From a bacterium (GTDB lineage: Bacteria > NPL-UPA2 > JAUVJM01): DNA of 64,000 nucleotides. Shown here piece after piece: positions 10,289 to 62,150 of the stretch. The first letter of the stretch is position 1. Every line of letters begins with the position of its first letter. The notes under the pieces are model-generated. The model saw only the letters and a list, made by a program, of their open reading frames with translations, was not told the origin of the DNA and did no database searches. The DNA lies in NCBI GenBank assembly GCA_030606215.1, contig JAUWGW010000007.1:1615-65614 (forward strand), written 5' to 3'. The position numbers and the translations under genes are program-made.

Positions 10289-10334
10289 AAATGGTATCCG
10301 AAACTATCAGAAAGATTTATTGTAGGGAGGAACT

Positions 10335-12769: not shown

Positions 12770-14207
12770 AAGACCAAAGGTTGGGCTCCTTTTACTCACT
12801 GCTGAATGGTTCACCCAGATAGGAGCAAGCAAAGGTTATTATAAGGAACTTCCCAAATTGATTGATGAGGATGCTATTAAAATAAATAAAATCCTGAAAG
12901 AAGAGCTAAACATAGTTAATCCAGGAATAGTAAACTCCAGGGAAAAGGTTAAGAAAGCGACAGAACTTTTTAAGAGAGAAAATATTGACCTGTTAATCAT
13001 CTGCTATCTTACCTGGGGAGAGGATAGATTAATAATTGAAGTCATAGAAAAACTCTCAGGAATCCCTATTCTTCTCTGGTGTTATTCTCCTTTTCAAAAA
13101 CTTCCTGAAACAATGAATATGCTTGACCTTTTCAGGAGTAGTGGACCTGTTGGAACAGTCCAGGCAAGTGGACCTTTAAAAAGGATGGGAAAAAGTTTCG
13201 GTTTTGCTTTTGGCTCATACAAAAACAAAGAGACTATTAGAAAAATAGTTGATTATAGCAAAGCAGCAAAATTAGCAAAAGACCTCAAGAAAGTAACTGT
13301 TGGGCTCCTGCCTTATAGATGTGATGCAATGACAGGGACGTATGTTGATGAATTCAGATTGAAGAAAGAGATTGGGCCAGAGATAAGATATATTTCAGTT
13401 AAGGAGTATTATTCAATCAGTCAGGAAATTCCCGCGAAAAAAATAGAAGAATATGTAAAAGAGCTAAAAGAGAATTACAAGATCTCTGGAGTAAATGACA
13501 GAGCTCTATTTAAAGGTGCAAGAGCCTCATTGGGATTGGCTGAAGTTGTAAATAGATTCGGATTGGATGCTTTAGCTATTCAGGATTTAGCAGAGGAACT
13601 TCATAAAACAATTGGTCTCAGGCCTTGTCTCTATGTACCTTCTCTGTTTGAAAAAGCAGTAGTAAGTATGGAAGCAGAAATAGGAGGAGCAGTTGCCCTT
13701 TTAATCTTAAAGAAACTGACTGATAAGCCACCTATGTATACAGAAATCTTTACATTTGACGAAGAAGAGAATACCATTTTAGCAGGTCATGCTGGCATCC
13801 ATGATGTAAATTTAGCGGAGAAAAGAGCTGATATAGCAATTACGCCTGATGCCGAATATATGGAAACAGAGCTTGAGACATGCTGGATGCAGTTCAGAGC
13901 TAAAGGGGGAGAAGTAACTTTACTCAGCCTATTCTGTGATGTAGATAAATTCAAAATGGTAATTTCTTCGGGAAATGCTCTGAGTGGTAAGGAAAAACTC
14001 CACGGCTCGCCTCATATCTATATTAAACTAAAAACCCCCTTAAAAGAATTTTTTGAAAAAATAGTCAAAACTGGAATGACACAGCACTGGGCAATTGTCC
14101 ATGAAAATGTGGTTAATCAATTAGAATACTTAGCTGATATCCTTAACCTGGATAAACTTATTATAGAAGAGTGGAACCTATTGAGATATCCTGGTTCAAA
14201 TAGATAA
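12756..14207 (+). CDS. L-arabinose/L-fucose isomerase family protein
   Basis: N-terminal pattern (VGLLLLTAEWF..IDLLIICYLTWG) resembles the AraA/FucI N-terminal domain. ~480 aa. Confidence 0.5.
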   Translation: MISNERPKVGLLLLTAEWFTQIGASKGYYKELPKLIDEDAIKINKILKEELNIVNPGIVNSREKVKKATELFKRENIDLLIICYLTWGEDRLIIEVIEKLSGIPILLWCYSPFQKLPETMNMLDLFRSSGPVGTVQASGPLKRMGKSFGFAFGSYKNKETIRKIVDYSKAAKLAKDLKKVTVGLLPYRCDAMTGTYVDEFRLKKEIGPEIRYISVKEYYSISQEIPAKKIEEYVKELKENYKISGVNDRALFKGARASLGLAEVVNRFGLDALAIQDLAEELHKTIGLRPCLYVPSLFEKAVVSMEAEIGGAVALLILKKLTDKPPMYTEIFTFDEEENTILAGHAGIHDVNLAEKRADIAITPDAEYMETELETCWMQFRAKGGEVTLLSLFCDVDKFKMVISSGNALSGKEKLHGSPHIYIKLKTPLKEFFEKIVKTGMTQHWAIVHENVVNQLEYLADILNLDKLIIEEWNLLRYPGSNR

Positions 14208-43508: not shown

Positions 43509-44318
43509 CTACATTGTGATAATTTCAGGTTCTCCATCTGTAACAATAATTGTATGCTCAAAATGTGCTGATGGTTGTCCGTCGCGGGTAACCGCCGTCC
43601 AGTTATCCTCTTGGACTTCAACTTCAAAAGTCCCCATATTGACCATCGGTTCAATAGCGAGAACCATACCAGGTTTCAGCCTTGGCCCTTGCTTTGGCTT
43701 ACCAAAATTTGGAATCTGTGGTTCTTCATGGAGGTTGCTTCCGATACCATGTCCAACAAAGTCGCGTACCACTGAGAATCCATTCTTTTCCACATGGGAT
43801 TGGACGGCATGTGATATATCTGATAGTCTATTACCTGCCCTGACTTTTTCTATACCTTTGAATAGAGCTTCCCTGGTAACTCTTAGTAGTTTATGAATAT
43901 CTGAGCTTATTTCTCCGACAGCTACTGTGATTGCTGAGTCACCAAAGAAACCTTTATACTCAACGCCAATATCCACGCTTATAATATCTCCTTCTTTTAC
44001 AACTCTGAATCCAGGGATTCCATGAACAATTTCTTCATTGATAGACGCGCAGATTGTTGCTGGAAAACCTTTATACCCCTTAAAAGCTGGAGTTCCTCCT
44101 CTTTTCCTGATCATTTCCTCTGCAATTTTGTCAAGTTCCGCAGTCGTTACACCCGGCTTTATAAGTTTTGTTAGTTTCTTAAGAACTTCAGCTACAATTC
44201 TGCTACTGGCACGTATTAACTTAAGTTCTTCCTCAGAATGGATGATAATCATGGTTAAAAGAGGATTTCGATTGCTTTGTAGGGACATGCTCTGACACAA
44301 AGCCCGCAGGCAATGCAT
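43509..44318 (-). CDS. map: Methionine aminopeptidase, type I
   Basis: Pita-bread fold motifs (..DIGVEYKGFFGD.., HGIGSNLHEEP). Confidence 0.9.
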   Translation of the reverse strand: MHCLRALCQSMSLQSNRNPLLTMIIIHSEEELKLIRASSRIVAEVLKKLTKLIKPGVTTAELDKIAEEMIRKRGGTPAFKGYKGFPATICASINEEIVHGIPGFRVVKEGDIISVDIGVEYKGFFGDSAITVAVGEISSDIHKLLRVTREALFKGIEKVRAGNRLSDISHAVQSHVEKNGFSVVRDFVGHGIGSNLHEEPQIPNFGKPKQGPRLKPGMVLAIEPMVNMGTFEVEVQEDNWTAVTRDGQPSAHFEHTIIVTDGEPEIITM

Positions 44319-44662
44319 CGCTCTTTCTCAAAGGAGATAAGATGTTTTTCTCTGTCAAGTACGAAAGCGCCTGCAGGGCAGAGCGGGATACAAGCTGTGC
44401 AGTGTATACATTTATCCTGGTGCCAGAGGACATCTTGTGCAAGAGGTTGCATTCCAACCCCGAGTTGAGAGAGGTAGTTGAGACCTTTTTCTAAAGCTTT
44501 TCTCTCCCCGCTTATCTCCACCACAAGTCTTCCTTCCTCACGCGGGGTTACTGTAGCCTGAAGTATATTAATCATCAAATCATAATCTCTTATCAACTGG
44601 TATGTTATAGGTTGTTCTACTAACTCTGGAGGAAAACGCAGGACAAGTCTTTTTTTCGTCAT
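44255..44662 (-). CDS. NIL-domain 4Fe-4S ferredoxin (MA1822-like homocysteine-synthesis partner)
   Basis: N-terminal NIL-like domain followed by two CxxCxxCxxxCP motifs. Confidence 0.75.
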   Translation of the reverse strand: MTKKRLVLRFPPELVEQPITYQLIRDYDLMINILQATVTPREEGRLVVEISGERKALEKGLNYLSQLGVGMQPLAQDVLWHQDKCIHCTACIPLCPAGAFVLDREKHLISFEKERCIACGLCVRACPYKAIEILF

Positions 44663-45819
44663 CGTTCTGCCCCCGGGAGAAATGCAACAGGTTCACTCAG
44701 CAAGAATTCTCCCTTTTCTATCCATTGTTTCAGAATATCTGCGATATCCCTTGCCCGCGCATAACTTGAAAGTCCGCCGGCAGGGATTTCCTTCCCTTCA
44801 ATAGTTATTTTCCCTTCCCTGAGCTCGTGATAATTCACTGTGCCAAGGATTTTGTCTTTGCCCTGCGGATAATCTTTGCTATAGTCTACAACCTGTGCAT
44901 GAATATCCTCATCACTCACAGCAGTATACTCAGCCATTTTTTCATCAAGAATTGGTATTGCTACTCCTATACCTAAAGTCAATGTTACTCCATAGCCTGT
45001 AAAACTTGCGCCGCGTATCCATTCAAGCGACATTTCTTTAAGATTCCCCGTAACTGCGAGCGTCCCTGCTGGAGCCCGGGGGAGACCATTTTTGTCACGG
45101 GGAACGTCCGGATTGTGTTGAGTTCCTGCTCCCCAGACATAACCCTGCGCTCCACCAAGGAATATTCGTGTTCCAACACCGATGGTTCTGTAGAGAGGGT
45201 CATTCAAAAGAGGGCTTAATTGACCGGCGCTACAGTAATTGGCATTTCCCATACGAGGTTGAAGAATTCCCATATATGTGTAAATCACTCTATCTGATTT
45301 GTTGACAGCTACATTATAGTTCTGATAAGCATTTCTGGGATTTGTAAGAATTGCCTGCGGAATGTCCCGTATCGTGATAGTTTTTTCAATTTCGCGGTTT
45401 GGATAACAGTTAGTGCCGTAGGCGAGACCTTTCAGCTTCACAGGTCTACCTGCAACAAGGTCTTCAATTACATGACCTCCGCCGTAGCGAAATTCGCCGG
45501 GGAAAACTTTGTTCTCAGGGTCATCTTCAGAAAGTTCTGTCGCTCCGAGGTAGACATCTACAGCTGCCAGTCCTGTATACGCCGGGACATTGTTCAGCCA
45601 CACTTTGCGAAATTTGATTCTCGGTTTTGAGTGCCCGAGGTTCAGAAAAACACCTGAGGAACACATCGGACCAAAAGTCCCGGTTGTAACAACATCCACT
45701 TCCCGAGAAGCTTTTTTTACACCTTTAGTCTTTACAATTTCAATCATCTCTTCGGCAGTTACAACTACAACCTCACCCATGGCTATTTTCTGATTAATTT
45801 GTGAATATGTCTTTGGCAT
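44659..45819 (-). CDS. DUF39/COG1900 homocysteine biosynthesis protein (MA1821-like, no CBS domains)
   Basis: 386 aa. N-terminal region matches the DUF39 family (..VDVVTTGTFGPMCSSG..). Translationally coupled to the NIL-ferredoxin gene. Confidence 0.7.
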   Translation of the reverse strand: MPKTYSQINQKIAMGEVVVVTAEEMIEIVKTKGVKKASREVDVVTTGTFGPMCSSGVFLNLGHSKPRIKFRKVWLNNVPAYTGLAAVDVYLGATELSEDDPENKVFPGEFRYGGGHVIEDLVAGRPVKLKGLAYGTNCYPNREIEKTITIRDIPQAILTNPRNAYQNYNVAVNKSDRVIYTYMGILQPRMGNANYCSAGQLSPLLNDPLYRTIGVGTRIFLGGAQGYVWGAGTQHNPDVPRDKNGLPRAPAGTLAVTGNLKEMSLEWIRGASFTGYGVTLTLGIGVAIPILDEKMAEYTAVSDEDIHAQVVDYSKDYPQGKDKILGTVNYHELREGKITIEGKEIPAGGLSSYARARDIADILKQWIEKGEFLLSEPVAFLPGAER

Positions 45820-46584
45820 TTAGCGCTCCTTCAGTCTTATCTTTCCCCATATTCCAAGTTTATCCCCGAAAATGATGACAACACCTCTCACACCATTTAT
45901 TGAGCGGGCAAAATCTACGGCTTTTTCAATGTCAGAATGGCTCTTCACAAGATTGCAGGTAGCGGTTGCTGCAGCATCAGCAAGGATTGCTGAAGGAGAA
46001 TAAATTACTACTGCGTCAGCGTTGCCAAAACTTAAAGAATGACCAACTGTTCCAGAAGAAGTGCATATGCCCAGAGGAGTCTCATCAGGTTCTATTTCCA
46101 GAGCTATCTGTTGGGTGAATATTGAATCTCCTGCATATATTGCTACAACCCTCCTGCAGTGAGATTTAAGGAAAATGTCTCCACCGTTTTCCACAATAAT
46201 TTCACTGGATTCAGAAAGTAAATTTTCACCTACATATTGTGCAATTGCTCCTGCGACAGTTGCCATCGGACCAACACCCGCTTTACATGATTCAGAAATC
46301 ATATCCTTAATAATGCGAGGAGCTCCTTCCTCGATATCTACCGGAGACAGACTCTTCAAAAATTCCCCCCTCTTTCTTATATAGCTTTCAATCTCCTGTC
46401 TATAGCGTATGACAGATGTAAGTGCCTGTTTCTTTAAATTTTCGAAGTTTTGTGGGAGACATCCCCGCCTCGCCGGCGGGCGGGTCCTGATGTCGAGTGA
46501 AATCAGGAGGTCAGTTTCTTTTTCACATATGGTGAAAGTTCCCAATCCCCCTGTCCCAACCCAGCTTCTATAAGTCTTATTCAT
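45820..46584 (-). CDS. UPF0280/COG2122 (ApbE-superfamily-like) protein
   Basis: Gly/Ala-rich ApbE-like core (GPMATVAGAIAQ.., GICTSSGTVGHS). Abuts the DUF39 gene. Confidence 0.5.
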   Translation of the reverse strand: MNKTYRSWVGTGGLGTFTICEKETDLLISLDIRTRPPARRGCLPQNFENLKKQALTSVIRYRQEIESYIRKRGEFLKSLSPVDIEEGAPRIIKDMISESCKAGVGPMATVAGAIAQYVGENLLSESSEIIVENGGDIFLKSHCRRVVAIYAGDSIFTQQIALEIEPDETPLGICTSSGTVGHSLSFGNADAVVIYSPSAILADAAATATCNLVKSHSDIEKAVDFARSINGVRGVVIIFGDKLGIWGKIRLKER

Positions 46585-46945: not shown

Positions 46946-47080
46946 GGATGACCTTGGCCATTTCGCCTTTTTGGGCTCCAGAAGCGAAGTTTTTGGCTAG
47001 AATAAGCCATGGCAAACTCAGAGCAAAATTTGACGATTCAAAGAATTTCTTTAAGTAGATGGTTGGAGGGGCAGAGCGTC

Positions 47081-47413
47081 ATGAAAACACGCGGTTTTCT
47101 AATTATTGTTTGTTTCGTTTTTCTCTTGGCCTCCTGCGGACCGAAGCCGGAAAAAACTATAATCGGTAAATGGGAGAGAATAGGAGATTCCAAGACTATC
47201 GAGTTCTTTAAAGATGGCACCGTAAGCATTGTTAAAGGGGAAATGTGTGCGGGTGGAGACTACAAGTTCATTAGTGCCAAGCGAATAAGGCTTGAGTTGG
47301 GTGGTGTATGGGCGTTGATTGGCCCTATCATCTACAACGTCTCTATCGTCCAAGACAAACTCATTTTGACCACTGCTGACGGGGAGTCTTCTGAATATCA
47401 AAAAGTCAAATGA
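47081..47413 (+). CDS. Small lipoprotein (signal peptide with lipobox LLASC)
   Basis: MKTRGFLIIVCFVFLLASCGP N-terminus. The ORF-track start at 47009 is probably too far upstream. Confidence 0.5.
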   Translation: MKTRGFLIIVCFVFLLASCGPKPEKTIIGKWERIGDSKTIEFFKDGTVSIVKGEMCAGGDYKFISAKRIRLELGGVWALIGPIIYNVSIVQDKLILTTADGESSEYQKVK

Positions 47414-47853
47414 ACCTATTTAAGAATTTACTTTCCGAGCTCGAAGGCAAGCTCAAAAATCACGGCTCATTTATCCTTCTTCCTGGGGAATCTATTAATG
47501 ACATCGTTAATCGGTTCGGTGTTTCTTCTGAACCTGGAGTTTATATAATCTACGGTTGTGCTTCTAAGAAAGAGAAAGTTATTTATATCGGTAGTAGTGG
47601 ACGTATAAAACAAGACGGGTCATTTGGGAAACAAACACTCAAAAAGCGTCTTACAATGAAGCAATGCGGAGAATATCGAAGAAAATTCTTCGGAAACATT
47701 CTTGCAAAGGGGAAATATTCCAAACTTCTTTTTAAGTGGTTCATTACTTTCGATTCATGCAATAAATTGCTCCCAGCTAACATTGAAGGCGATTTAATGC
47801 AAGCTTATTATGATGATTTTAAATGTCTTCCGGAATACAACAAATCATATTGA
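47410..47853 (+). CDS. GIY-YIG-domain protein (putative small nuclease)
   Basis: PGVYIIYG..(9 aa)..VIYIGSSGRI matches the GIY/YIG spacing. Start overlaps the lipoprotein stop (ATGA). Confidence 0.4.
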   Translation: MNLFKNLLSELEGKLKNHGSFILLPGESINDIVNRFGVSSEPGVYIIYGCASKKEKVIYIGSSGRIKQDGSFGKQTLKKRLTMKQCGEYRRKFFGNILAKGKYSKLLFKWFITFDSCNKLLPANIEGDLMQAYYDDFKCLPEYNKSY

Positions 47854-47939: not shown

Positions 47940-47967
47940 TTGACAAAAACGCTGTGCGGTGTATAAT
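47940..47967 (+). promoter_or_regulatory. Sigma70-type promoter TTGACA-16-TATAAT with tandem TGTATAA repeats (47960-47966 and 47974-47980) upstream of vapB
   Basis: Read directly from the sequence. RBS AGGAGGTGA follows at 47981-47989. Confidence 0.5.
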
Positions 47968-47994
47968 GTAGGATGTATAAAGGAGGTGAGAACC

Positions 47995-48252
47995 ATGGGT
48001 AATTTACATCGGACTCAAATCTACATTGAGGAAGATCAAATGCACCAGCTCAAACTTGAAGCAGAGAGAGAACACCTCGCTGTGTCTAAATTAATCCGCC
48101 ATGCGATCGACCGGCTCTTAAAAACAAGGGCCAACAATATTGACTGGGACAGGGACCCTCTCACCAAAGCCATTGGCAAGATTAAACTCACGGTAACTAA
48201 CGCCGCTGTGGATCACGACCACTATTTATACGGGCGGAGAAAAAGGAGATGA
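47995..48252 (+). CDS. vapB: VapB-type antitoxin (RHH/CopG-like)
   Basis: Small protein with N-terminal ..TQIYIEEDQ..L..LIRHAIDRLL consistent with a ribbon-helix-helix. Directly upstream of the PIN toxin. Confidence 0.5.
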   Translation: MGNLHRTQIYIEEDQMHQLKLEAEREHLAVSKLIRHAIDRLLKTRANNIDWDRDPLTKAIGKIKLTVTNAAVDHDHYLYGRRKRR

Positions 48253-48255
48253 TTT

Positions 48256-48663
48256 ATGGAAAAGGTATTTGTAGACACCAGTGGTTGGGTAGCCCTCTTT
48301 GTAGCAAATGATAAAGATCATAAAAAGGCAGCTCCCATTTTTGATGACCTTAAGCGGTTAAAGGTGCTCATTTATACCTCGGACTATGTCATTGATGAAA
48401 CCATTACAACCATTTTGGCAAGAGGAAACCACAAACAATCTGTCTTTGCAGGCAAAGTTCTCCTCACAAGTGAAATCATCAAGATAGTGCATATTTTCCC
48501 AGACTATTTTCAAAGTGCCTGGAAACTTTACCAAAAGTACAAGGATAAAAATTTTAGTTTCACAGATGTTACCTCCTTCACAGTAATGAAGGATCTCAAT
48601 ATCAACAGGGCTTTTGCTTTCGATAGAGAATTTATACAGGCGGGAATCGAACTGATAGGATAA
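48256..48663 (+). CDS. vapC: PIN-domain toxin
   Basis: VFVDTSGWVALF N-terminal acidic motif. Conserved downstream acidic residues (..DETIT.., ..FTDVTSF..). Confidence 0.85.
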   Translation: MEKVFVDTSGWVALFVANDKDHKKAAPIFDDLKRLKVLIYTSDYVIDETITTILARGNHKQSVFAGKVLLTSEIIKIVHIFPDYFQSAWKLYQKYKDKNFSFTDVTSFTVMKDLNINRAFAFDREFIQAGIELIG

Positions 48664-48668
48664 TCTCT

Positions 48669-49013
48669 ATGAGCTTTTGGAACTATTTTGTCGGAGAAGC
48701 ATACTGTCTCTACGACGCTTGCAAGGATAAAAAGATAAAAGTCTGTACGGCTAATTCTCTGAAAGAATTTTTCAAAGATCTGAAAAAGACCAAACGCATT
48801 AAGTGGCAAATAATAAAGAATCCTTCCTACATAAACAGTAAACCTTTTTGCAAGAGCCCTGGCAGGATGACATGGAAGAAATTTTCGAAATGTATTGGGG
48901 AGGGGCACCAGAAACGCTGCCCATTTTTGGGATATGTATTAGCAGATAAAGAAGAATTTATTGCTGCAGTAAAGGCAATAGAAAATAGCCCAAGAGAAAA
49001 AAAGACCCGATAA
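48669..49013 (+). CDS. Hypothetical Cys-rich small protein
   Basis: ORF only. Six Cys, no recognisable domain. Confidence 0.3.
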   Translation: MSFWNYFVGEAYCLYDACKDKKIKVCTANSLKEFFKDLKKTKRIKWQIIKNPSYINSKPFCKSPGRMTWKKFSKCIGEGHQKRCPFLGYVLADKEEFIAAVKAIENSPREKKTR

Positions 49014-49297
49014 ACTCACATATTTAGCCTTATTCAGAATTTTGCTCCACCCCGATGATAAAAACCCGCCTCTTCGGAGGGTCACCGATGAGGCGACCCT
49101 TTCAAATTTGCCATACACAGCCATTTCTCGACCCTGTTAGACCAGAGTATGTAGGTAAACTCTCTCCTGAAAGTGCAGACCCCCTCTCAGAGCCCGAATT
49201 TTTATCACCATAAATTCCCCTTCTAACTCTATTTTTGCCAGTTTTGCATAGAGAAGTTGGAGCAAATGGTATTCTAATATGGAAAGGGAATTAGGAA

Positions 49298-49366
49298 GAC
49301 CAGTTTCTATAAGTTTTATTCATGATAACGATAATAATATGTCAAAATTGAGGGTTGGTCAAGCGG
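49298..49366. repeat. Copy B of the ~70 bp direct repeat. On the minus strand it carries a truncated duplicate of the COG2122 gene start (MNKTYRNWSS*)
   Basis: Aligned by eye to 46558-46627. The minus-strand reading gives 8 identical codons, then a stop. Confidence 0.6.
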
Positions 49367-49453
49367 GTAATAAAAATTTCTTGCAATTCAAGTAAAACCA
49401 CTCTAAAATCAGAATTTAGAATTCGGTCTTCGGGTTTCGGTAAAGGTAGATAC

Positions 49454-49537
49454 CCAGTAAACGCCGTGTCATTCTGACCCTGAGTGAAGGGGAAGAATCT
49501 ACAAGAGATTCTTTGTCGCGTTGCTCCTCAGAATGAC
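49454..49537. repeat. GTCATTCTGA-family intergenic repeat (copy 3) with its inverted partner. Forms a long imperfect hairpin: gtcattctga..gaagaatct / agattctt..tcagaatgac
   Basis: Outer 10-bp and inner 8-bp complementary arms read from the sequence. Confidence 0.55.
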
Positions 49538-49582
49538 AGATTGGGACGCATTTGCTGAATGTTTACGTGAGGGTTTATTCAG

Positions 49583-50701
49583 ATGAAAGCAGTATTGGTG
49601 TTAGAAGATGGCAGCACATTTCACGGTCTCTCAGCAGGAGTAGTCGGAGAGAAGGTAGGAGAGGTTATTTTAAATACTGCTGTTGTTGGGTATCAGGAGA
49701 TTATGACAGATCCGGCAAATGCCGGTAAGATTTTGGTTTTGACATATCCCTTGATAGGTAATTATGGTGTAGCCAAAAAATTTTCCGAGTCCGGGAAATG
49801 CTGGTTATCTGCACTGGTTATAAAAGAAAACAGCAACATGTATTCCAATTGGCAAGCAGAGGATACTTTTAGCAATTTCTTGAAGAAAGAAGGTCTTGTT
49901 GCAATGAGTGAAGTTGATACAAGGACATTAACTGTTAAGATCAGGGATAGCGGTCAGATGCTTGGAATAGTTTCAAGTCAAGAGGTAAAGAAAAGTGCCC
50001 TGCTTAAGAAACTGAAAGACTATAAAAGAGAAATGAAAAGAGATTTTATAAAAGATATCTCTGTAAAAAGGATTAAACAAATTAAGGGGAATCCTTCAGG
50101 CCCAAGAATAGCCATACTAAATTTGGGAATCTTGAATAGTTTTCTTGAACAATTAAGGGAGCTTGGATGCAATCTTACATTGTTACCCTATAACACTGAT
50201 GCAGACAAAATTCTTGGATTGAATCCCGACGGTTTAATTATTTCTAATGGGCCGGAGGAAGATGAGGCAATTTCTAAAATTGTAGTGGTAGTTCAGAAAC
50301 TCCTCGGGAAAATTCCCATTTTAGGTATTTCTACCGGATGTGAAATTATTTATCTTGCTTTGGGAGGAAAGCTTAAAAAGATGAAGATAGGTCACCATGG
50401 CTTAAATTATCCGGTGCGCTCACCCGAATCATATAAAGGTGATATCACAGTTCAGAACCATTCATATGCTTTAGATGAGAATTCTTACCCATACCTATCT
50501 CTTCCCCAAATCCCCCTACCCCCTTTACAAAAGGGGGAGAAAGGGATTAAAATTACCCTGCGGAATGTCAATGATAACTCTATTGAGGAGATAGAGAGTC
50601 TACCGTTAAAGTTTATCTCCGCCCAGTACTATCCGGTAAGTCCCGGGTCTGGAGAGGTGAATGAATTATTCATAAGGTTTTTGAAGTATGCCAAAGCGTA
50701 A
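49583..50701 (+). CDS. carA: Carbamoyl-phosphate synthase small subunit homolog with substituted glutaminase catalytic triad
   Basis: Collinear with E. coli CarA. The nucleophile-elbow motif GICLGHQ reads GISTGCE, and the C-terminal FQGHPE reads AQYYPV. Confidence 0.85.
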
Positions 50702-53700
50702 AGATATAAAGAAGATTTTAATGATAGGCTCTGGTCCTATTATTATAGGACAGGCTTGTGAATTTGATTATTCTGGTTCTCAAGCCTGTAAGGCTTTAAG
50801 AGAAGAAGGTTACTTTACAATCCTTATAAATAGTAATCCGGCTACCATTATGACAGACCCTGACATGGCAGATGTGACATATGTTGAGCCGCTTACAGTA
50901 GAAGTTATTACTGAGATAATAAAAAAGGAGAGACCTGATGCCATTCTACCTACATTGGGTGGTCAGACAGGGTTGAACCTTGCCTATTTTTTGATGAGGG
51001 AAGGTATTCTAAAAAAGTATGGGGTAGAGTCTATAGGGGCCAGTGTTGAGGCTATCTCAAGAGCTGAAGATAGAGAACTATTCAAAAAGGCAATGCGAGA
51101 GATAAACATAGACACTCCAAAAAGCGGCATTGCTACAAATCTAAGTTCCGGTGTAAAGATTGGACTTGAAATAGGGTTCCCATTAATTTTGAGGCCTGCG
51201 TACTGTTTGGGAGGAAGCGGTGGTTCTACTGCTTATAATAAGGAGGAATTGGAGGAGTTTTTGGTAAAGGGACTTGAGATAAGCCCGGTCCATCAGGTGT
51301 TGGTTGAACAATCTGTATTAGGGTGGAAAGAAATAGAGTACGAGGTAATGAGAGACTGTGTTGATAATGTTATTATGATTACTTCTATGGAGAATGTTGA
51401 TCCAATGGGGGTGCATACCGGTGATAGTATTGTAGTTGCGCCATCCCAGAGTGTAAGCATGAATGAGTACTCAAATTTTGTGAATCTATCCAGAAGGATT
51501 ATAAGGAAGATCGGTGTAGCGGGAGGGGGTGCAAATATTCAATTTGGCCAGAATCCGGATAATGGACACATTGTGATTATAGAGGTTAATCCGAGACTTT
51601 CAAGGAGTTCAGCCTTGGCGTCCAAAGCTACGGGTTTCCCTATTGCAAGGGTTGCTACAAAGTTGGCTGTTGGCTTGACTCTCCCTGAAGTTCTAAATCA
51701 GATTACGGGAAAGACAACATCGTTCTTTGAGCCGACGGTTGATTACTGCGTATTTAAGATCTGTAGATTTACTTTTGAAAAATTTCCTCAGGCTCAAAGG
51801 GTTTTAAACACATCTATGAAGGCAGTTGGTGAGGCAATGTCTATTGGCAGGAATTTCAGGGAAGCGCTTCAGAAGGGAATAAGGTCTACTGAAACAGGTA
51901 GGTCTGGACTGGGTTCAGACGGAAAAGACAAAATTACGGATGAGGTGTTAGAATCAGCATCAGAGGATTTGATTGAGGAAATAAAGAAAAAAATAAGGAT
52001 TCCCAGCGATGAGAGGTTATTTTATATCAGGTATGGTATTAAACTTGGATTAACAGTTGATGAGATTTATGAGCTCTCAAAAATTGACAGGTGGTTTATA
52101 AATAATATGAGGCAGATTGTAGAATTGGAGGAAGAGATAAAAAAGTTCAGGATTAAGGATTCAGGATCCCGAATCCCACCGGAGTTGCTCAGGAGGGCGA
52201 AGATGAACGGTTTCTCAGATGCACAGCTTGCTTATCTGCTAAATTCAACGGAGAGAAAAGTTCGTTCCTTACGAAAAAAGCACAATATAGAGGCAGTTTA
52301 TAAATTGGTAGATACATGTGGAGGGGAATTTAAAGCGAGCAAACCTTACTATTATTCTACATATGAGACCAGGAACGAGAGTGAGCCCTCTCAAAATAAG
52401 AAAGTTCTTATCCTCGGAGGTGGACCTAATAGAATAGGGCAGGGGATAGAATTTGATTATTGTTGTTGCCATGCTTCCTTTGCTTTGAAGGAAGAAGGAG
52501 TTGAAAGCATTATGGTAAATTGCAATCCGGAGACTGTCTCTACAGATTATGATACTTCAGACAAGTTGTATTTTGAACCTTTGACAGTTGAGGATGTATT
52601 AAATATTGTAGACATTGAAAAACCTTTCGGTGTAATAGTTCAATTCGGAGGTCAGACTCCTTTGAACATATCCGGGGAACTCGCGAAGGCGGGAGTGAAA
52701 ATCTTGGGGACCAGCCCTGATTCTATAGACAGAGCAGAGAATAGAAAAAGATTTCAACGGACGCTCAAACAATTGCAACTCATTCAGCCTGATAATGGGA
52801 TAGCAGGCTCGTTCGAAGGAGCAAGGAAGATTGCTGGAAGAATAGGATATCCGGTAGTGGTAAGACCTTCTTATGTCCTCGGTGGTAGAGCTATGGAGAT
52901 AGTCTATGATGACGAGGACTTAAATGGTTTCATGGAGAAGGCTGTAGAGGCATCTCCTGAGCGTCCAATTCTTATTGACAAGTTTTTGGAGGATGCGATT
53001 GAGGTCGATGTGGACGCAATTGCAGATGGCAGGAAGTGCGTGATAGGCGGGATTATGGAGCACATTGAGGAGGCAGGAATACATTCTGGCGACAGTGCAA
53101 TGGTCATTCCTCCATATACGCTGGGTAAAGATATAATAGAAGTTATAAGGGATAATACATACTTGCTTGCAAAGGAATTGAATGTAAAGGGATTTTTGAA
53201 TATCCAGTATGCTGTCAAGAATAATGTAGTCTATGTCTTAGAAGTGAATCCAAGAGCAAGCAGAACAATCCCGTTTGTGAGTAAGGCAATAGGAGTTCCT
53301 CTGGCAAAGTTAGCAACCAAGATAATGCTCGGGAGGACACTCGAAGAATTGGGTTTTATGAAGGAAAAGGAAATAGAGCACGTGGCGGTGAAAGAATCCG
53401 TATTTCCTTTTATAAGGTTTCCTGGTGTAGACGCAGTTCTCGGACCGGAGATGAAATCGACGGGGGAGGTCATGGGAATTGATTCTACATTCGGTGTAGC
53501 TTATGCGAAGAGCCAGATAGCTGCCGGGCAAAAGTTGCCGAAGAAAGGAAATGTATTTGTAAGCGTGAAAAACCAGGATAAGAGAAGTATAGTTTTCATT
53601 GCTAAGAAGCTTGTTGATCTTGGCTTCAGGATTATGGCGACTTCGGGTACGGCAGATGTCCTTAAGAAGAATGATATAGAAACAAAAGTCCTTCCTAAAC

Positions 53701-53957
53701 TTCATGAAGGGAGACCCAATATCATTGATTTAATAAAAGATGGCAAGGTAGAACTTATGATAAACACTCCTGCGGGAAAAGCAACTAAGGAAGATGAAAC
53801 AAAGATAAGGTCTCATGCGATTCTCTATGGTGTTCCTCTTATAACCACGATTGCTGGTGCTGAGGCTACTGTCAACGGAATTGAGAATCTGGTTAACAGG
53901 AAAAAGATGGGTGTGAAATCGTTACAGAAATATCATGAGCCAGTGAAAAATTCTTGA
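50688..53957 (+). CDS. carB: Carbamoyl-phosphate synthase large subunit
   Basis: 1089 aa with duplicated ATP-grasp halves, oligomerisation and MGS-like domains. Confidence 0.95.
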
Positions 53958-59574: not shown

Positions 59575-60453
59575 ATGGAGGTTGGTGAAATGGAAGATAC
59601 GATAACTGCTGTAGTGCCTGTGTATAATGAAGAGGAGGCATTACGAGAAGTAATTGAAAAATTAAAGGTTGTGTTAAGCCAGGGCCAGTTCAAGTATGAA
59701 ATTATTGTAGTTGATGACGGTTCCAGTGATGGGACTTCCGAGATCTTAAGCAAGATTGATGGGATTCAGGTAGTTACTCACCCAACCAACTCGGGATATG
59801 GTAAAGCGTTGAAAACAGGTATAAGTCGTGCGAAAGGAAATTGGATCCTCATCATTGATGCTGATGGAAGCTATGAGGCAGGAGATGTGCCTGAGTTATT
59901 GGAACGCAGGAAGGAATGCGACATGGTGATTGGTTTAAGAAGAGGGAGAAAAACTTATGATTCACTTCTGAGAAAGCCGGCAAAGTGGTTTCTTAATAAA
60001 CTTGCAGGTTATCTCGCTGGAATAAACATTCCTGATTTGAATTCAGGATTGAGGGTGTTTAGAAAAGACCTCGCTCTCAAGTTCTGGCATCTTTTCCCGG
60101 ACCGTTTCTCTTTTACTACTACATTGACAATGTGTTTTTTAGCCAGCGGCCATACTATAGAATATGTAAACATAAATTACCTGAAGAGAATTGGCAAATC
60201 AAAGATCATGCCATCTAACTTTTTACAGTTCATAAACCTTGTGATTAGACTTGTGATCTATTTTGAACCGCTGAAAATTTTTGTTCCGGTGAGTCTTATT
60301 ATTTTCCTGCTCGGGGTCTTTTTTGCGCTTTATAGTTTTTTCTATCTTGATAGAATCATGGATGTTACGGTGGTAGTGCTTCTCCTTACATCCTTACAGA
60401 TCTTTTTCTTCGGGCTGCTTGCTGAACTAATAGTTAAAAGGTCGAGCAAATAG
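59575..60453 (+). CDS. GT2-family polyprenyl-phosphate sugar synthase (DPM1/GtrB/ArnC-like) with C-terminal TM helices
   Basis: VVPVYNEEE.., VVDDGSSDGT, DADG (DxD) motifs. Two C-terminal TM segments. Confidence 0.8.
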   Translation: MEVGEMEDTITAVVPVYNEEEALREVIEKLKVVLSQGQFKYEIIVVDDGSSDGTSEILSKIDGIQVVTHPTNSGYGKALKTGISRAKGNWILIIDADGSYEAGDVPELLERRKECDMVIGLRRGRKTYDSLLRKPAKWFLNKLAGYLAGINIPDLNSGLRVFRKDLALKFWHLFPDRFSFTTTLTMCFLASGHTIEYVNINYLKRIGKSKIMPSNFLQFINLVIRLVIYFEPLKIFVPVSLIIFLLGVFFALYSFFYLDRIMDVTVVVLLLTSLQIFFFGLLAELIVKRSSK

Positions 60454-62150
60454 TGGGATATAATTCCGAGCTACGCAATGTATATGCCATAAAGGCTCTG
60501 TCTCAGATAAATCGCCTCCTTGGTCTTCAGGACCGAAATTCGTTTTCTCCTACCTACGGATGTTTTCATCGTGACTACTGGTTGTATAAAACCTCTGATT
60601 TTCCAGATGCTGTGCGGCAGTTTGGTGTTCATGCATTAGCCATGGTTTACAAATATGACTTTCCAGAGAACATTTACAGAGGGAATCAAAGAGTGAGGGA
60701 TTGGGCGATTGCAGGACTTAGCTTCTGGACAAATATCCAGCATAAAGACGGCTCTTTTGATGAATTTTATCCTTATGAGCGGGGTTGGGTTGGACCAACA
60801 GCGTTTACTACCTTTGCATGTATTGAAGCTTATCAGATATTAAAGGATGAAATTCCAAAAGATGCGAGCAGAAACATAATTTCAGCTATCCGTCGAGCAG
60901 CCTGTTTCATAGCTCGGGGTGAGGCAGAAAAGGATGACCTTGCCAACCACCACGCTATGGCTTGCCTGGCACTATGGAAAGCATATGAGCTTCTGTCAGA
61001 TGACAATCTGAGAATTGGTTTTGATAAGGCGTGGAAGAATTTCCTTTCTTATCACAATAGTGAAGAGGGATGGTCACGGGAATATGATGGAGTTGACCCG
61101 GGCTATCTTTCAGCTACCGTCTCATTCCTTGGCAAGATTTATCAGACAAATCCTGCCACGGAAATACTTGATGTGCTTCACCAGTCAGTTAAATTCTGCA
61201 GTTTTTTTCTTTACCCGGATGGTTTTTATGGCGGAAGTCTCGGCAGCCGTAACACGCTGCATTTTTATCCTCATGGTTTTGAAATTCTGGCGGGTAAGAT
61301 TCCGCTGGCAGCGTCAATTGCGGAAGCAGGGCTGCGCGCATTGGCTGAAGGGAAATTGGTGCCGCCTGAGATTATGTCCGACAGATATGTTTTTTATCGT
61401 GTGCCTGAATTTTTGCAAGCTTATCTGGATTATTCACCAAGACCGGTTGAATTGTCTCCTTTACCTTACGAAGAAACTTCTTTTGTTCATTATTTTCCTG
61501 GGGCAGGCATCTTCGTCGCTGCCAGAGACAAAAATTATATAGTTGCCAACCTTTCTAAGGGAGGCGTGGTCAAAATCTTTGACCGTGAGCGTAAAAAGAT
61601 ACTCCTTAATGATTGTGGGATAATTGGGTGTTTATCCAACGGTAAAGCTGTGACATCGCAGTGGATAGACTTAGGATACTCACGCAGTGTGGATGGTATG
61701 AGTTGGGAGGTAACCGGTTATATGAATGAGGTGCCATCAAATAAACTGTTGACTCCCTTAAAGAATATAGTTTTCAGGATGGTGCTGGTAGCTTTAGGGT
61801 GGAATCCTCGTCTATCCCACATACTTAAAGGCAGGATTCGCAGTGCACTCATTCTTGGCTGCCGTAGAGCGCCGGTTTGGTTCAAGCGCTCTTTCTCCAT
61901 GAATGGTAATGGGGTGGTAATAACAAATGAATTGAATCTGGAGGGTAATGCGCGGTTTCAAACATTATCGATAGGTGGAGAATTCTCTGTGCGTTATGTT
62001 CCACAAAGCAGGTATTTTCAAAGTCAGGAACTTTGTTCTCCAAACGGGGAGCTGAACCGGGAAGAGATAGATAGATTTAACAGAAGTAAGACAATAAAGG
62101 TAAATTGTGTGCTGGCACCTGATACTACTTTGCATTGGACAATTAGATGA
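60453..62150 (+). CDS. Hypothetical 565-aa protein (no recognised domain; possibly a glycan-active alpha/alpha-barrel-like enzyme)
   Basis: Long ORF in operon context between the GT2 and UPF0104 genes. ATGA overlap with the GT2 stop. Confidence 0.4.
   Translation: MGYNSELRNVYAIKALSQINRLLGLQDRNSFSPTYGCFHRDYWLYKTSDFPDAVRQFGVHALAMVYKYDFPENIYRGNQRVRDWAIAGLSFWTNIQHKDGSFDEFYPYERGWVGPTAFTTFACIEAYQILKDEIPKDASRNIISAIRRAACFIARGEAEKDDLANHHAMACLALWKAYELLSDDNLRIGFDKAWKNFLSYHNSEEGWSREYDGVDPGYLSATVSFLGKIYQTNPATEILDVLHQSVKFCSFFLYPDGFYGGSLGSRNTLHFYPHGFEILAGKIPLAASIAEAGLRALAEGKLVPPEIMSDRYVFYRVPEFLQAYLDYSPRPVELSPLPYEETSFVHYFPGAGIFVAARDKNYIVANLSKGGVVKIFDRERKKILLNDCGIIGCLSNGKAVTSQWIDLGYSRSVDGMSWEVTGYMNEVPSNKLLTPLKNIVFRMVLVALGWNPRLSHILKGRIRSALILGCRRAPVWFKRSFSMNGNGVVITNELNLEGNARFQTLSIGGEFSVRYVPQSRYFQSQELCSPNGELNREEIDRFNRSKTIKVNCVLAPDTTLHWTIR

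What the first reader, a model, noticed from the sequence alone, without database searches (positions are those of the whole stretch)
49583..50701. CarA homolog with all three glutaminase triad residues substituted (ammonia-dependent CPSase?)
The ORF aligns gap-free with E. coli CarA through the amidotransferase core. The nucleophile elbow G-I-C-L-G-H-Q reads G-I-S-T-G-C-E (Cys269 to Ser), and the C-terminal F-Q-G-H-P-E reads A-Q-Y-Y-P-V (His353 to Tyr, Glu355 to Val). A ~25 aa Pro-rich insert (..[23 protein letters not shown]..) also lies between these motifs. carB immediately downstream looks complete. Loss of Cys, His and Glu together predicts no glutamine hydrolysis. The small subunit would then serve only as a structural/allosteric partner and the enzyme would use free ammonia, as in vertebrate CPS I (Cys to Ser), which is rarely described in bacteria. 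The DUF39 and Rnf genes elsewhere in the window suggest an anaerobe, a lifestyle in which free ammonia is plausibly available (inference).
Basis: partly seen in the sequence, partly recalled or inferred. Interest (0 to 1): 0.75.

Follow-up and report, generated by a model that had tools for sequence, protein, structure and literature searches.

The report
Bacterial CPS with dead glutaminase subunit
The small subunit of this bacterium's carbamoyl-phosphate synthetase has lost every residue needed to split glutamine, and so have over a hundred close relatives whose large subunits changed with it, so this lineage probably makes arginine and pyrimidine precursors from free ammonia, which textbooks attribute only to the vertebrate liver enzyme.

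Summary
ORF 49583-50701 is a full-length CarA homolog overlapping a complete carB by 14 nt. Ser replaces Cys269, Tyr replaces His353 and Glu355 is absent.

It is not a one-off. All 120 closest homologs (60-87% identical, mostly labelled Omnitrophota) lack the triad. They share conserved replacements of residues that are invariant or nearly so in 70 canonical CarAs: S47A/T, G243E, Q273E, G313S and P360F. Position 293 is also bulky, as in human CPS1, where that change plugs the old tunnel.

CarB partnered with such CarAs forms one monophyletic lineage. It keeps all catalytic and allosteric residues checked but has Cys232->Thr at the ammonia-tunnel gate and Arg265->Val/Thr. Related dead carA-carB pairs sit inside pyrimidine operons. 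PyrG on a clade contig keeps its own triad.

Best reading (confidence about 0.65): the small subunit is a pseudo-glutaminase kept as a structural or tunnel subunit, and the enzyme uses free ammonia. This would be an independent bacterial analogue of CPS I.

I could not test whether the same genome also has a canonical carA, and there is no biochemistry. I found no published description, and databases label these proteins "glutamine-hydrolyzing".

Novelty: new variant of a known kind. Interest 0.68.

The parts
49583..50701 (+). carA-like gene: CPS small subunit, 372 aa, with a catalytically dead glutaminase domain
   Evidence: ORF. Pfam PF00988 and PF00117. TIGR01368 329.9 bits. AlphaFold model pLDDT 85, TM 0.86 to E. 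coli CarA.
49595..49972 (+). N-terminal CPSase small-chain domain (aa 5-130), which forms the interface with CarB. Carries clade-specific changes F32L, T37V, Y48N, Q51K, D69F, and S47->A (E. coli numbering).
50126..50644 (+). Class-I glutamine-amidotransferase-like domain (aa 182-354) without a catalytic triad
50243..50263 (+). S-N-G-P-E-E-D in place of the canonical S-N-G-P-G-D-P. G243->E is seen in 120/120 clade members against G in 70/70 canonical CarAs; P245->D in 119/120.
50324..50344 (+). Nucleophile elbow G-I-S-T-G-C-E. Ser250 (TCT, 50330-50332) replaces Cys269 and Glu254 replaces Gln273.
50393..50413 (+). H-H-G-L-N-Y-P. Leu274 occupies E. coli position 293, which is Ala or Gly in 70/70 canonical CarAs and Val/Leu/Ile in 100/120 clade members. 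This is the position where Gln318 blocks the ancestral tunnel in human CPS1.
50453..50470 (+). Q-N-H-S-Y-A. Asn311 and His312 are kept; Gly313->Ser in 119/120 clade members.
50486..50545 (+). Lineage-specific Pro-rich loop insert (aa 302-321), predicted disordered. Contains the palindrome CCCCCTTTACAAAAGGGGG (50519-50537). Not part of the conserved phenomenon.
50621..50653 (+). [11 protein letters not shown] in place of Q-Y-H-P-E-A-S-P-G-P-H. His353->Tyr, Glu355 absent. The tunnel-wall residues Pro360/His361 are Ser/Gly here and Phe/Asp in most of the clade.
50688..53957 (+). carB: complete CPS large subunit (1089 aa), overlapping carA by 14 nt. All catalytic and allosteric residues checked are conserved.
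51381..51383 (+). CarB Thr232 in place of the gate residue Cys232, part of the triangular gate A314-A251-C232 at the end of the ammonia tunnel
51480..51482 (+). CarB Val265 in place of Arg265. Arg is found in every canonical-partnered CarB that could be read at this position (38/38 and 32/32).

Best explanation
carA (49583-50701) and carB (50688-53957) encode a heterodimeric carbamoyl-phosphate synthetase whose small subunit is a pseudo-glutaminase. It keeps the CarA fold and the CarB-binding N-domain but cannot hydrolyse glutamine. The nucleophile Cys, the general base His and the Glu are gone, and several residues of the glutamine pocket are replaced.

CarB is a fully competent, allosterically regulated synthetase. 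It therefore has to take NH3 from the cell's free ammonia/ammonium pool (inferred).

The small subunit is retained under purifying selection. The likely reason is that it stabilises CarB and forms part of the ammonia path (inferred).

The path itself appears re-engineered. Position 293 is bulky, as in human CPS1, where that change plugs the old tunnel. The CarB gate residue Cys232 is Thr. The three residues at the subunit interface, CarA Pro360/His361 and CarB Arg265, are all replaced. From my recollection of Kim & Raushel 2004, mutating those three residues opens a hole in the tunnel wall. That suggests a lateral entry for external ammonia (speculative).

The state is ancestral to a whole lineage: an Omnitrophota-dominated clade plus deeper relatives. 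It supplies carbamoyl phosphate for pyrimidine and arginine synthesis. Using NH3 directly would save the ATP that glutamine synthetase spends per nitrogen atom, which is plausible for energy-limited anaerobes (inference).
For: Shown by tools:
- All three triad residues are lost in the query.
- None of the 120 closest homologs has the triad. At position 269, 100 have Ser, 14 Ala and 2 Gly, with single Gln, Thr, Val and Cys. At 353, 107 have Tyr. Residue 355 is deleted in all 120.
- Residues conserved in 70 canonical CarAs are replaced clade-wide: S47 (70/70), G243 (70/70), Q273 (69/70), G313 (67/70) and P360 (69/69).
- The GATase-like domain stays conserved, with mean pairwise identity 0.67 against 0.70 for the N-domain. 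All homologs are intact ORFs.
- The model is confident and has the CarA fold.
- CarB is complete. R129, R169, E215, H243, Q285, E299, N301, R303 and their counterparts in the second half are invariant, as are most ornithine and UMP/IMP site residues.
- CarBs partnered with this kind of CarA form one clade in an NJ tree.
- All 19 CarBs read from that lineage have T232 with V265 (18) or T265 (1). By contrast 67 of 70 canonical-partnered CarBs have C232/R265, and all 70 have R265.
- carA overlaps carB by 14 nt. carB follows in every related locus long enough to show it.
- Deeper members of the lineage lie in pyrimidine operons, L087 and L092.
- PyrG on the same contig as clade member P0059 keeps GICLGMQ and QFHPE, so glutamine amidotransfer in general is not abandoned.

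From papers:
- Cys269 and His353 are essential for glutamine hydrolysis (PMC6245113).
- CPS1 cannot use glutamine because of Cys->Ser, and its old tunnel is blocked at the Gly293 equivalent (PMC4655335).
- A314-A251-C232 form the tunnel gate (PMC8674909).
- Omnitrophota genomes encode complete arginine and nucleotide pathways.
Against: - There is no biochemical measurement.
- E. coli CPS uses ammonia only at very high, probably unphysiological concentrations (PMC6245113), so an ammonia-dependent bacterial enzyme needs adaptations that I can only guess at.
- I could not check whether the same genome also holds a canonical carA. Two MAGs labelled Omnitrophota do carry canonical carAB (L008, L031), and L008 has two carB genes, so CPS paralogy exists in this phylum.
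- The association between the CarA and CarB changes is one evolutionary event. It cannot be separated statistically from shared ancestry.
- Three independent Cys->Gly losses (L089, L090, L166) lack the C232T and R265V changes, so those changes are not required for losing the nucleophile.
- No ammonium transporter is seen in the window.
- The roles I assign to S47, G243, Q273, G313, P360, H361 and R265 rest on my recollection of the E. coli structural and mutagenesis papers. I could not retrieve those papers.
Confidence: 0.65

Rival explanations
1. Paralog model. The genome also has a canonical, active carA (or a whole second carAB). The dead CarA is then an alternative or regulatory small subunit, for example one used when ammonium is plentiful, so the organism as a whole still makes carbamoyl phosphate from glutamine.
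For: Canonical carAB occurs in two MAGs labelled Omnitrophota (L008, L031). L008 has a canonical carA followed by two full-length carB genes, so CPS duplication happens in the phylum. Both dead and canonical types are found under Planctomycetota labels. Some bacteria are known to have separate arginine- and pyrimidine-specific CPSs (general knowledge).
Against: No second CarA-like ORF lies in the 64-kb window. None lies within +/-6-10 kb of any of the 160 loci examined, including 24 triad-less ones. The dead carA is translationally coupled to carB, and in L087 and L092 it sits inside the pyr operon where the working CPS genes belong. Its CarB has diverged together with it, at 62% identity to L008 CarB, and has changes at the tunnel gate that a glutamine-fed tunnel would be expected to conserve. 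No assembly appeared twice in the genome scan, but that scan was not exhaustive.
Confidence: 0.15
2. Rewired hydrolase model. The domain still hydrolyses glutamine, or another amide, using Ser250 as nucleophile with different helper residues such as Glu225/Glu254 or the Tyr pair. Nitrogen would still arrive through the internal tunnel.
For: Ser is the commonest residue at position 269 (100/120), and the pocket substitutions are highly conserved rather than random. Asn311 and His312 are invariant. Ser-based amidases exist in other folds (general knowledge).
Against: About 17% of clade members have Ala, Gly, Gln, Thr or Val at position 269, and deeper members of the same lineage have Gly or Ala. 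Such variation would not be tolerated at a catalytic nucleophile. His272 next to it is Cys, Ser, Ala or Gly in the query and its nearest relatives. The E. coli C269S enzyme, which is the best structural match, was made as a glutaminase-dead mutant. Residues that hold glutamine (S47, G243, Q273, G313) are replaced, two of them by acidic side chains that should repel the substrate's carboxylate (roles recalled from memory). Bulky residue 293 and Thr232 suggest the old tunnel is altered.
Confidence: 0.07
3. Ligand-sensor model, which is compatible with ammonia use. The remodelled, more acidic pocket (Glu225, Glu254, Ser294, Tyr349/350) binds a small molecule and allosterically tunes CarB. Candidates are NH4+ itself or an amine such as ornithine or a polyamine. 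An alternative form of this model has the pocket recruiting and deprotonating NH4+, in the manner of Amt channels.
For: The pocket substitutions are almost invariant (G243E 120/120, G313S 119/120, Q273E 106/120, H353Y 107/120). That implies selection for a new property rather than mere loss. In E. coli, glutamine binding to the C269S subunit still signals to the large subunit (recalled from Rubino et al. 1986, not retrieved).
Against: There is no direct evidence for a ligand. Deeper members of the same lineage (L088, L091) lack G243E and Q273E yet have also lost the nucleophile, so the acidic pocket is a later addition and not the basis of the system. Bulky residue 293 may disconnect the pocket from the tunnel.
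Confidence: 0.12
4. Decay or artefact. The gene is a degenerating pseudogene, or the substitutions are sequencing or assembly errors.
For: Cys (TGT) to Ser (TCT) is a single-base change.
Against: The ORF is intact and coupled to carB. An identical protein was assembled independently in a Logan run. All 120 homologs at 60-87% identity are full-length with the same state, and the domain is 67% identical on average. The AlphaFold model is confident.
Confidence: 0.01

Closest known systems
E. coli CarA-CarB (glutamine-dependent CPS II, EC 6.3.5.5; PDB 1jdb, 1c30)
   Same: Same two-gene operon, same domain architecture in both subunits and same fold (TM 0.86). CarB is 54% identical with all catalytic and allosteric residues checked conserved. 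CarA scores above the TIGR01368 cut-off.
   Different: There is no Cys-His-Glu triad. S47, G243, Q273, G313, P360 and H361 of CarA are replaced, as are C232 and R265 of CarB. Position 293 is bulky. It is therefore not expected to hydrolyse glutamine.
Vertebrate CPS I (ammonia-dependent, EC 6.3.4.16; human CPS1, PDB 5dot/5dou)
   Same: A CPS with a retained but inactive glutaminase-like domain in which Ser replaces the catalytic Cys. A bulky residue sits at the Gly293 equivalent, which blocks the ancestral tunnel in CPS1. External ammonia is presumed to enter by another route (PMC4655335). Structural match TM about 0.81.
   Different: The origin is independent and bacterial. There are two separate subunits, not one 1500-aa chain. 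All three triad residues are lost, whereas PMC4655335 attributes human CPS1's defect to the Cys->Ser change alone. The gate Cys is changed to Thr here but kept in CPS1 as Cys648. The ornithine and UMP/IMP allosteric residues are those of bacterial CPS II, so nothing points to N-acetylglutamate dependence. The role is biosynthetic (pyr/arg operons), not ureagenesis.
Engineered E. coli CPS mutants: C269S; small-subunit G359F; and the 'perforated tunnel' triple mutant (small-subunit P360A/H361A plus large-subunit R265A; Kim & Raushel 2004, listed as CR80 in PMC6245113; content recalled, not read)
   Same: The natural protein combines the C269S change with changes at exactly the three residues of the perforation mutant: P360->F/S, H361->D/G and R265->V.
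   Different: These are natural, conserved and co-inherited, not laboratory lesions. Their effect on the tunnel in this protein is unknown.
Other ammonia-using routes to carbamoyl phosphate in prokaryotes: carbamate-kinase-like CPS of Pyrococcus/Thermococcus and the 41-kDa CPS of Methanobrevibacter smithii (PMC6022934)
   Same: Ammonia rather than glutamine would be the nitrogen source.
   Different: Those systems lack a CarA subunit altogether or use a different fold. Here the full CarAB architecture is kept, with a dead CarA.
Glutamine-dependent versus ammonia-dependent forms of other amidotransferases, such as the NAD synthetase family (PMC3376133, listed, not read)
   Same: The theme of lineages switching between glutamine and free ammonia as nitrogen donor.
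   Different: As I recall it, the ammonia-dependent NAD synthetases simply lack the glutaminase domain. Here the domain is retained and remodelled.

Membership tests
CarA / CPS small subunit (Pfam PF00988 + PF00117; NCBIfam TIGR01368) | N-terminal CPSase small-chain domain | tested here: met
   PF00988, 149.6 bits, aa 5-130, full profile length.
CarA / CPS small subunit (Pfam PF00988 + PF00117; NCBIfam TIGR01368) | C-terminal class-I glutamine amidotransferase fold | tested here: met
   PF00117, 101.8 bits. AlphaFold model TM 0.86 to E. coli CarA.
CarA / CPS small subunit (Pfam PF00988 + PF00117; NCBIfam TIGR01368) | Whole-protein score above the curated equivalog cut-off | tested here: met
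   TIGR01368, 329.9 bits against a cut-off of 307.35; NF009475, 299.2 against 221.
CarA / CPS small subunit (Pfam PF00988 + PF00117; NCBIfam TIGR01368) | Encoded next to, and partnered with, carB | tested here: met
   14-nt overlap with a complete carB. The same arrangement is seen in related loci.
Glutamine-hydrolysing CPS (CPS II, EC 6.3.5.5) | Catalytic triad Cys269-His353-Glu355 in the small subunit | tested here: not met
   Ser, Tyr and absent in the query. The triad is absent in all 120 closest homologs and present in every canonical CarA of the 70-protein panel that could be read at those positions.
Glutamine-hydrolysing CPS (CPS II, EC 6.3.5.5) | Conserved glutamine-pocket residues (S47, G243, Q273, G313; roles recalled from the E. 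coli structures) | tested here: not met
   Ala, Glu, Glu and Ser in the query. Conserved in 67-70 of 70 canonical CarAs.
Glutamine-hydrolysing CPS (CPS II, EC 6.3.5.5) | Glutamine-dependent carbamoyl-phosphate synthesis | not testable with these tools
   Needs an enzyme assay.
Glutamine-hydrolysing CPS (CPS II, EC 6.3.5.5) | Large subunit with two ATP-grasp catalytic sites and an ornithine/UMP-IMP allosteric domain | tested here: met
   PRK05294, 1621.8 bits. All catalytic residues checked are invariant and the allosteric residues are largely conserved.
Ammonia-dependent CPS I (EC 6.3.4.16) | Inactive glutaminase-like domain with the catalytic Cys replaced | tested here: met
   Ser250 at the Cys269 position. 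CPS1 has Ser294 there (PMC4655335).
Ammonia-dependent CPS I (EC 6.3.4.16) | Single fused polypeptide of about 1500 aa, of metazoan mitochondrial lineage | tested here: not met
   Two separate genes of 372 and 1089 aa. The CarB groups with bacterial CarBs in the NJ tree. Any resemblance is therefore convergent.
Ammonia-dependent CPS I (EC 6.3.4.16) | Obligatory activation by N-acetylglutamate | not testable with these tools
Ammonia-dependent CPS I (EC 6.3.4.16) | Uses only free ammonia as nitrogen donor | not testable with these tools
   Inferred from loss of the triad. Needs an enzyme assay.

The most novel reading that the evidence does not exclude
An ancient, diverse bacterial lineage (Omnitrophota and related uncultivated anaerobes) independently evolved a dedicated ammonia-dependent carbamoyl-phosphate synthetase. 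It did so by killing the glutaminase, plugging the old tunnel at position 293 and opening a new lateral ammonia inlet at the CarA-CarB interface. The inlet would lie at CarA residues 360/361 and CarB residue 265, with a re-tuned gate (C232T). In the Omnitrophota clade the vestigial pocket may have been turned into an acidic/aromatic NH4+ recruitment site (Glu225, Glu254, Ser294, Tyr349/350). If so, it is a natural counterpart of Raushel's perforated-tunnel mutant and a convergent twin of vertebrate CPS I. It would also mean that the rule 'all bacterial CPSs use glutamine' is wrong for a whole phylum-level group.
Probability: 0.3. Interest if true: 0.85.

Novelty: new variant of a known kind. 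Interest (0 to 1): 0.68.

Why it matters
[quoted passage not shown] They also state that every CPS type except vertebrate CPS1 uses glutamine (PMC4655335). A conserved, clade-wide bacterial CarAB with a dead glutaminase would be a natural exception.

It would matter in four ways.

1. It offers an independent evolutionary replay of the CPS II to CPS I transition, in a simple two-subunit enzyme that can be expressed in E. coli.
2. It provides natural variants at exactly the tunnel-gate and tunnel-wall residues studied by mutagenesis, so it can be used to test how external ammonia reaches the carboxyphosphate site.
3. It changes how nitrogen and energy budgets are modelled for Omnitrophota and related ultra-small anaerobes, because direct NH3 use saves the glutamine-synthetase ATP.
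4. It exposes a systematic annotation error. These proteins pass the TIGR01368 cut-off and are named 'glutamine-hydrolyzing carbamoyl-phosphate synthase small subunit' in public records.

More broadly, about half of the 150 nearest 50%-identity cluster representatives lack the triad. Triad-less CarA may therefore be common in uncultivated bacteria.

Tried and rejected
- **Second canonical carA in the same genome.** I could not test this. The tools give at most +/-10 kb around a hit. No assembly appeared twice, but that is not conclusive. The complete-genome Omnitrophota preprint and its supplement do not mention carA, carB, K01955 or K01956.
- **Regulatory RNA upstream of carA.** Rfam found nothing at gathering thresholds over the whole window, or at E<=1 over 48900-49700. 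The promoter and terminator scans were uninformative. A hairpin at 49467-49538 is only marginally better than shuffles (z = -2.1).
- **The Pro-rich insert as a functional element or mobile repeat.** Its palindrome occurs once in the window. Only the nearest homolog shares the insert, and it is predicted disordered. I rejected it as part of the mechanism.
- **G352->Y as a meaningful substitution.** Rejected. Tyr is the usual canonical residue.
- **L008's second carB as ancestor of the dead-CarA lineage.** The NJ tree places it as sister. However, it is a long branch, 52-56% identical to everything, with C232 and Q265. I treat this as unreliable.
- **An adjacent class-II amidotransferase as alternative ammonia donor.** The gene after carB in L085 is a divergent PurF-like protein (207 bits, cut-off 350). 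It does not recur in the window or in the other dead-carA loci whose gene tables I saw, so I rejected it.
- **Retrieving the primary E. coli tunnel papers.** PMC2748306 and PMC11147029 are not held, so the roles of several residues are cited from memory.
- **Taxonomic labels from cluster look-ups.** Mostly empty. The organism is assigned to Omnitrophota only from the names carried by homologs.
- **Measuring pocket geometry in the AlphaFold model.** Coordinates are not exposed to scripts.
Full report

Yes. The ORF listing gives an ORF at exactly 49583..50701 (+), 372 aa. It is followed by a 1089-aa ORF at 50688..53957 that overlaps it by 14 nt.

Pfam finds the CPSase small-chain domain (aa 5-130) and a class-I GATase domain (aa 182-354) in the first ORF, and all CarB domains in the second. 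NCBIfam scores them at 329.9 bits for TIGR01368 (cut-off 307.35) and 1621.8 bits for PRK05294 (cut-off 599).

In the phmmer alignment to PDB chains, G-I-S-T-G-C-E lies opposite E. coli G-I-C-L-G-H-Q. The single best PDB match is 1c30, the engineered C269S mutant.

MAFFT with E. coli CarA, taken from NC_000913, aligns A-Q-Y-Y-P-V with F-Q-G-H-P-E. The DNA shows the Ser codon TCT at 50330-50332 and CAG TAC TAT CCG at 50624-50635.

- Tyr352 is the normal canonical residue (Y in 54/70).
- Glu355 is better described as deleted.
- The insert is about 14-17 aa, is shared only with the nearest homolog, and is the only disordered part of the AlphaFold model.

**2. It is a clade, not an accident.**

The word-indexed search of 5.8 billion proteins returned 120 best hits at 60-87% identity. 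All are 356-389 aa. Those that carry a name are labelled Omnitrophica/Omnitrophota, one is labelled Ratteibacteria, and the rest are simply 'bacterium'. An identical protein was assembled independently in a Logan run.

None of the 120 has the triad. At position 269, 100 have Ser, 14 Ala and 2 Gly, with single Gln, Thr, Val and Cys. At position 353, 107 have Tyr, 6 Asn, 4 Asp, 2 Cys and 1 Ser. Residue 355 is deleted in all.

I compared them with a panel of 70 canonical CarAs from the genome scan. The clade has near-invariant replacements of residues conserved in that panel:

| Position | Canonical panel | Clade |
|---|---|---|
| S47 | 70/70 | A or T |
| G243 | 70/70 | E, 120/120 |
| P245 | 69/70 | D, 119/120 |
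| Q273 | 69/70 | E, 106/120 |
| G313 | 67/70 | S, 119/120 |
| P360 | 69/69 | F, 99/120 |
| 293 | Ala or Gly, 70/70 | Val/Leu/Ile, 100/120 |

Mean pairwise identity within the clade is 0.67 for the GATase-like domain and 0.70 for the N-domain. In canonical CarAs the values are 0.56 and 0.49. The dead domain is therefore still under strong constraint, though relatively a little less than in active enzymes.

The model built from a 29-sequence alignment is confident (pLDDT 85.3, pTM 0.88). It matches E. coli CarA at TM 0.86 and the N-terminal moiety of human CPS1 at about 0.81.

**3. How far does it extend?**

The exhaustive phmmer search of 1.84 billion 50%-identity representatives collapses the clade to one full-length cluster (P0061, 515 bits) plus fragments. 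The next hit, P0123, scores 317 bits at 48% identity and still has Ser/Tyr/Tyr.

Only 74 of the 150 best representatives have Cys-His-Glu. Most of the others have Gly at position 269.

I fetched contigs for seven such representatives. Each is followed directly by carB:
- P0123 (L087) and P0277 (L092) lie inside pyrimidine operons, with pyrR-pyrB-pyrC upstream and pyrK-pyrD-pyrF downstream.
- L089 is in a Firmicutes-style pyr operon.
- L090 is in an arginine cluster (argB...argD-carA-carB-argF).

In GTDB species representatives, five genomes carry close relatives (L003-L007). All are triad-less, and all are followed by carB. The other 75 loci are canonical, including two MAGs labelled Omnitrophota (L008, L031).

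The metagenome scan added ten more clade loci. Six of them reach into carB.

**4. The partner CarB changed too.**

An alignment of CarBs shows that those partnered with the dead CarA keep every catalytic residue I checked in both ATP-grasp halves, and nearly all ornithine and UMP/IMP site residues. They carry a small set of lineage-specific substitutions.

Two stand out. Cys232->Thr changes one of the three residues of the triangular gate A314-A251-C232 at the end of the ammonia tunnel (PMC8674909). The other is Arg265->Val.

Across all carA-carB pairs in hand:
- 67 of 70 canonical pairs have C232/R265, and all 70 have R265.
- All 19 pairs of the dead lineage that could be read have T232, with V265 in 18 and T265 in 1.

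In an NJ tree of CarB these form one monophyletic group: the query clade plus L087, L092, L083, L091 and L088. This is therefore one ancient event, not many. The correlation cannot be separated from shared ancestry.

Three other triad-less CarAs (L089, L090, L166; all Cys->Gly) fall elsewhere. They keep C232 and R/K265. They are independent and probably younger losses.

Within the dead lineage the order of events appears to be:
1. Loss of the nucleophile together with CarB C232T and R265V/T.
2. G243E.
3. H353Y, Ser at position 269 and Q273E in the Omnitrophota clade.

**5. What it most likely does.**

Cys269 and His353 are essential for glutamine hydrolysis through a thioester (PMC6245113). 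In human CPS1, replacing the Cys by Ser explains the inability to use glutamine (PMC4655335). Here all three triad residues and several pocket residues are gone. The nucleophile position tolerates Ala and Gly. Glutaminase activity is therefore very unlikely.

CarB is intact and regulated, and the operon contexts are biosynthetic. Published surveys report complete arginine and nucleotide pathways in Omnitrophota. The enzyme should therefore be the cell's carbamoyl-phosphate source, and the remaining nitrogen donor is free ammonia.

The organism has not given up glutamine amidotransfer in general. PyrG on the same contig as clade member P0059 keeps GICLGMQ and QFHPE. TrpG and HisH are reported as present in 174-176 of 176 complete genomes.

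The window encodes an Rnf complex and the anaerobe-type homocysteine enzyme HcyBio. That fits an anaerobic habitat.

The route of ammonia is inferred, not shown.
- CarA 360/361 and CarB 265 are, as I recall, the three residues whose replacement perforates the tunnel wall (Kim & Raushel 2004, content not retrieved).
- Together with C232T, this suggests that the old path from the dead pocket is closed and a lateral inlet at the subunit interface is used. This parallels the alternative tunnel proposed for CPS1.

I put 0.65 on 'pseudo-glutaminase plus ammonia-dependent CPS' and about 0.3 on the specific inlet model.

**6. Rivals.**

The main rival is that the same genome also has a canonical carA. 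I could not test it. No second CarA-like ORF lies in the window or in any of the 160 fetched loci. However, canonical carAB exists in two MAGs labelled Omnitrophota, and L008 even has two carB genes.

A rewired Ser hydrolase is unlikely, because position 269 varies and the pocket has changed. A ligand-sensing or NH4+-recruiting pocket is compatible with the main model, and the near-invariance of the new acidic residues hints at it. Pseudogene or artefact is excluded.

**7. Comparison with what is known, and novelty.**

By sequence and fold the protein is a member of the CarA family. It fails the defining catalytic feature of glutamine-hydrolysing CPS, so it should not be filed as EC 6.3.5.5.

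It works like CPS I but is not a member of that family. It has separate subunits, a bacterial origin, CPS II-type allosteric residues, a more complete loss of the triad and a changed gate residue.

Five full-text searches found no description of a bacterial triad-less CarA. Every 'inactive glutaminase' hit concerns vertebrate CPS1. Reviews state that bacterial CPSs are glutamine-dependent. Public records name these proteins 'glutamine-hydrolyzing'.

I rate it a new variant of a known kind, with interest 0.68. A CPS specialist would be surprised, and the hypothesis can be tested directly by expressing two genes in an E. coli carAB mutant. The missing genome census and the lack of biochemistry keep the score below the top range.

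Noticed in passing
P0121-P0269; L089 6001-7107, L090 6001-7074, L166 3372-4547: Triad-less CarA is not confined to the query's lineage. Only 74 of the 150 nearest 50%-identity representatives have Cys-His-Glu, and most of the others have Gly at the nucleophile position (GIGLGHQ). Three of them (L089 in a pyr operon, L090 in an arg cluster, L166) are independent losses whose CarB keeps C232 and R/K265.
   Followed up: partly
L008 7077-16374: A MAG labelled Omnitrophota (UBA10183) has a canonical carA followed by two full-length carB genes in tandem, then a DUF1846/PRK13663 gene. The second carB scores 1511 bits to PRK05294, is 52-56% identical to all other CarBs, and has C232 and Q265. DUF1846 also lies downstream of carB in L085.
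   Followed up: partly
L088 9011-9946: In the Planctomycetota-labelled branch of the dead-CarA lineage, the gene just upstream of carA is a stand-alone GMP synthase ATP-pyrophosphatase domain (guaA_Cterm, 326 bits) with no GATase domain. This may be another amidotransferase separated from its glutaminase.
   Followed up: no
window 50519-50537: A perfect palindrome, CCCCCTTT-ACA-AAAGGGGG, encodes the query-specific part of the Pro-rich insert in carA. It occurs once in the window, and 5 of 100 shuffles give at least one match. Its origin is unknown (slippage or a small insertion).
   Followed up: partly
window 49467-49538: Nested inverted repeats form a long hairpin about 45 nt upstream of the carA start (11-nt outer arms, 8-nt inner arms). 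Folding 49455-49590 gives MFE -41.4 kcal/mol and z = -2.1. There is no Rfam match. It could be a leader or attenuator, or a REP-like element.
   Followed up: partly
window 47959-48663: A ribbon-helix-helix / PIN-domain pair (a putative VapBC-type toxin-antitoxin) lies upstream of carA. It is preceded by two small ORFs without Pfam matches (47009-47853).
   Followed up: no
window 44255-46584: HcyBio (formerly DUF39, 524 bits) sits with its NIL-ferredoxin partner and an upstream 254-aa ORF that has no Pfam hit. This is the methanogen/anaerobe-type homocysteine biosynthesis module.
   Followed up: no
window 7899-14207 and 60453-62150: Two URO-D-like genes are interleaved with a DegT-type aminotransferase and a GFO/IDH/MocA oxidoreductase. 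They are followed by a 483-aa ORF (12756-14207) with no Pfam match. A 565-aa ORF at 60453-62150 also has no Pfam match.
   Followed up: no
L085 14649-16055: A divergent PurF-like class-II amidotransferase directly follows carB in clade member P0059's contig, and is followed by glmS. It scores 207 bits to TIGR01134, below the 350 cut-off, and only the GATase_7 domain is on record. It does not recur in the window or in the other dead-carA loci whose gene tables were seen.
   Followed up: partly
L003, L004, L005 (record titles): GTDB species representatives carrying the clade's carAB are titled 'Clostridia bacterium' and 'Thermodesulfobacteriota bacterium' at NCBI, whereas named homologs are labelled Omnitrophota. 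This is likely automated mislabelling of MAGs.
   Followed up: no
P0017, P0045, P0059, P0064, P0278, P0300 (names): Triad-less proteins are named 'glutamine-hydrolyzing carbamoyl-phosphate synthase small subunit' in NCBI records. The query itself passes the TIGR01368 equivalog cut-off. This is a systematic functional over-annotation.
   Followed up: yes
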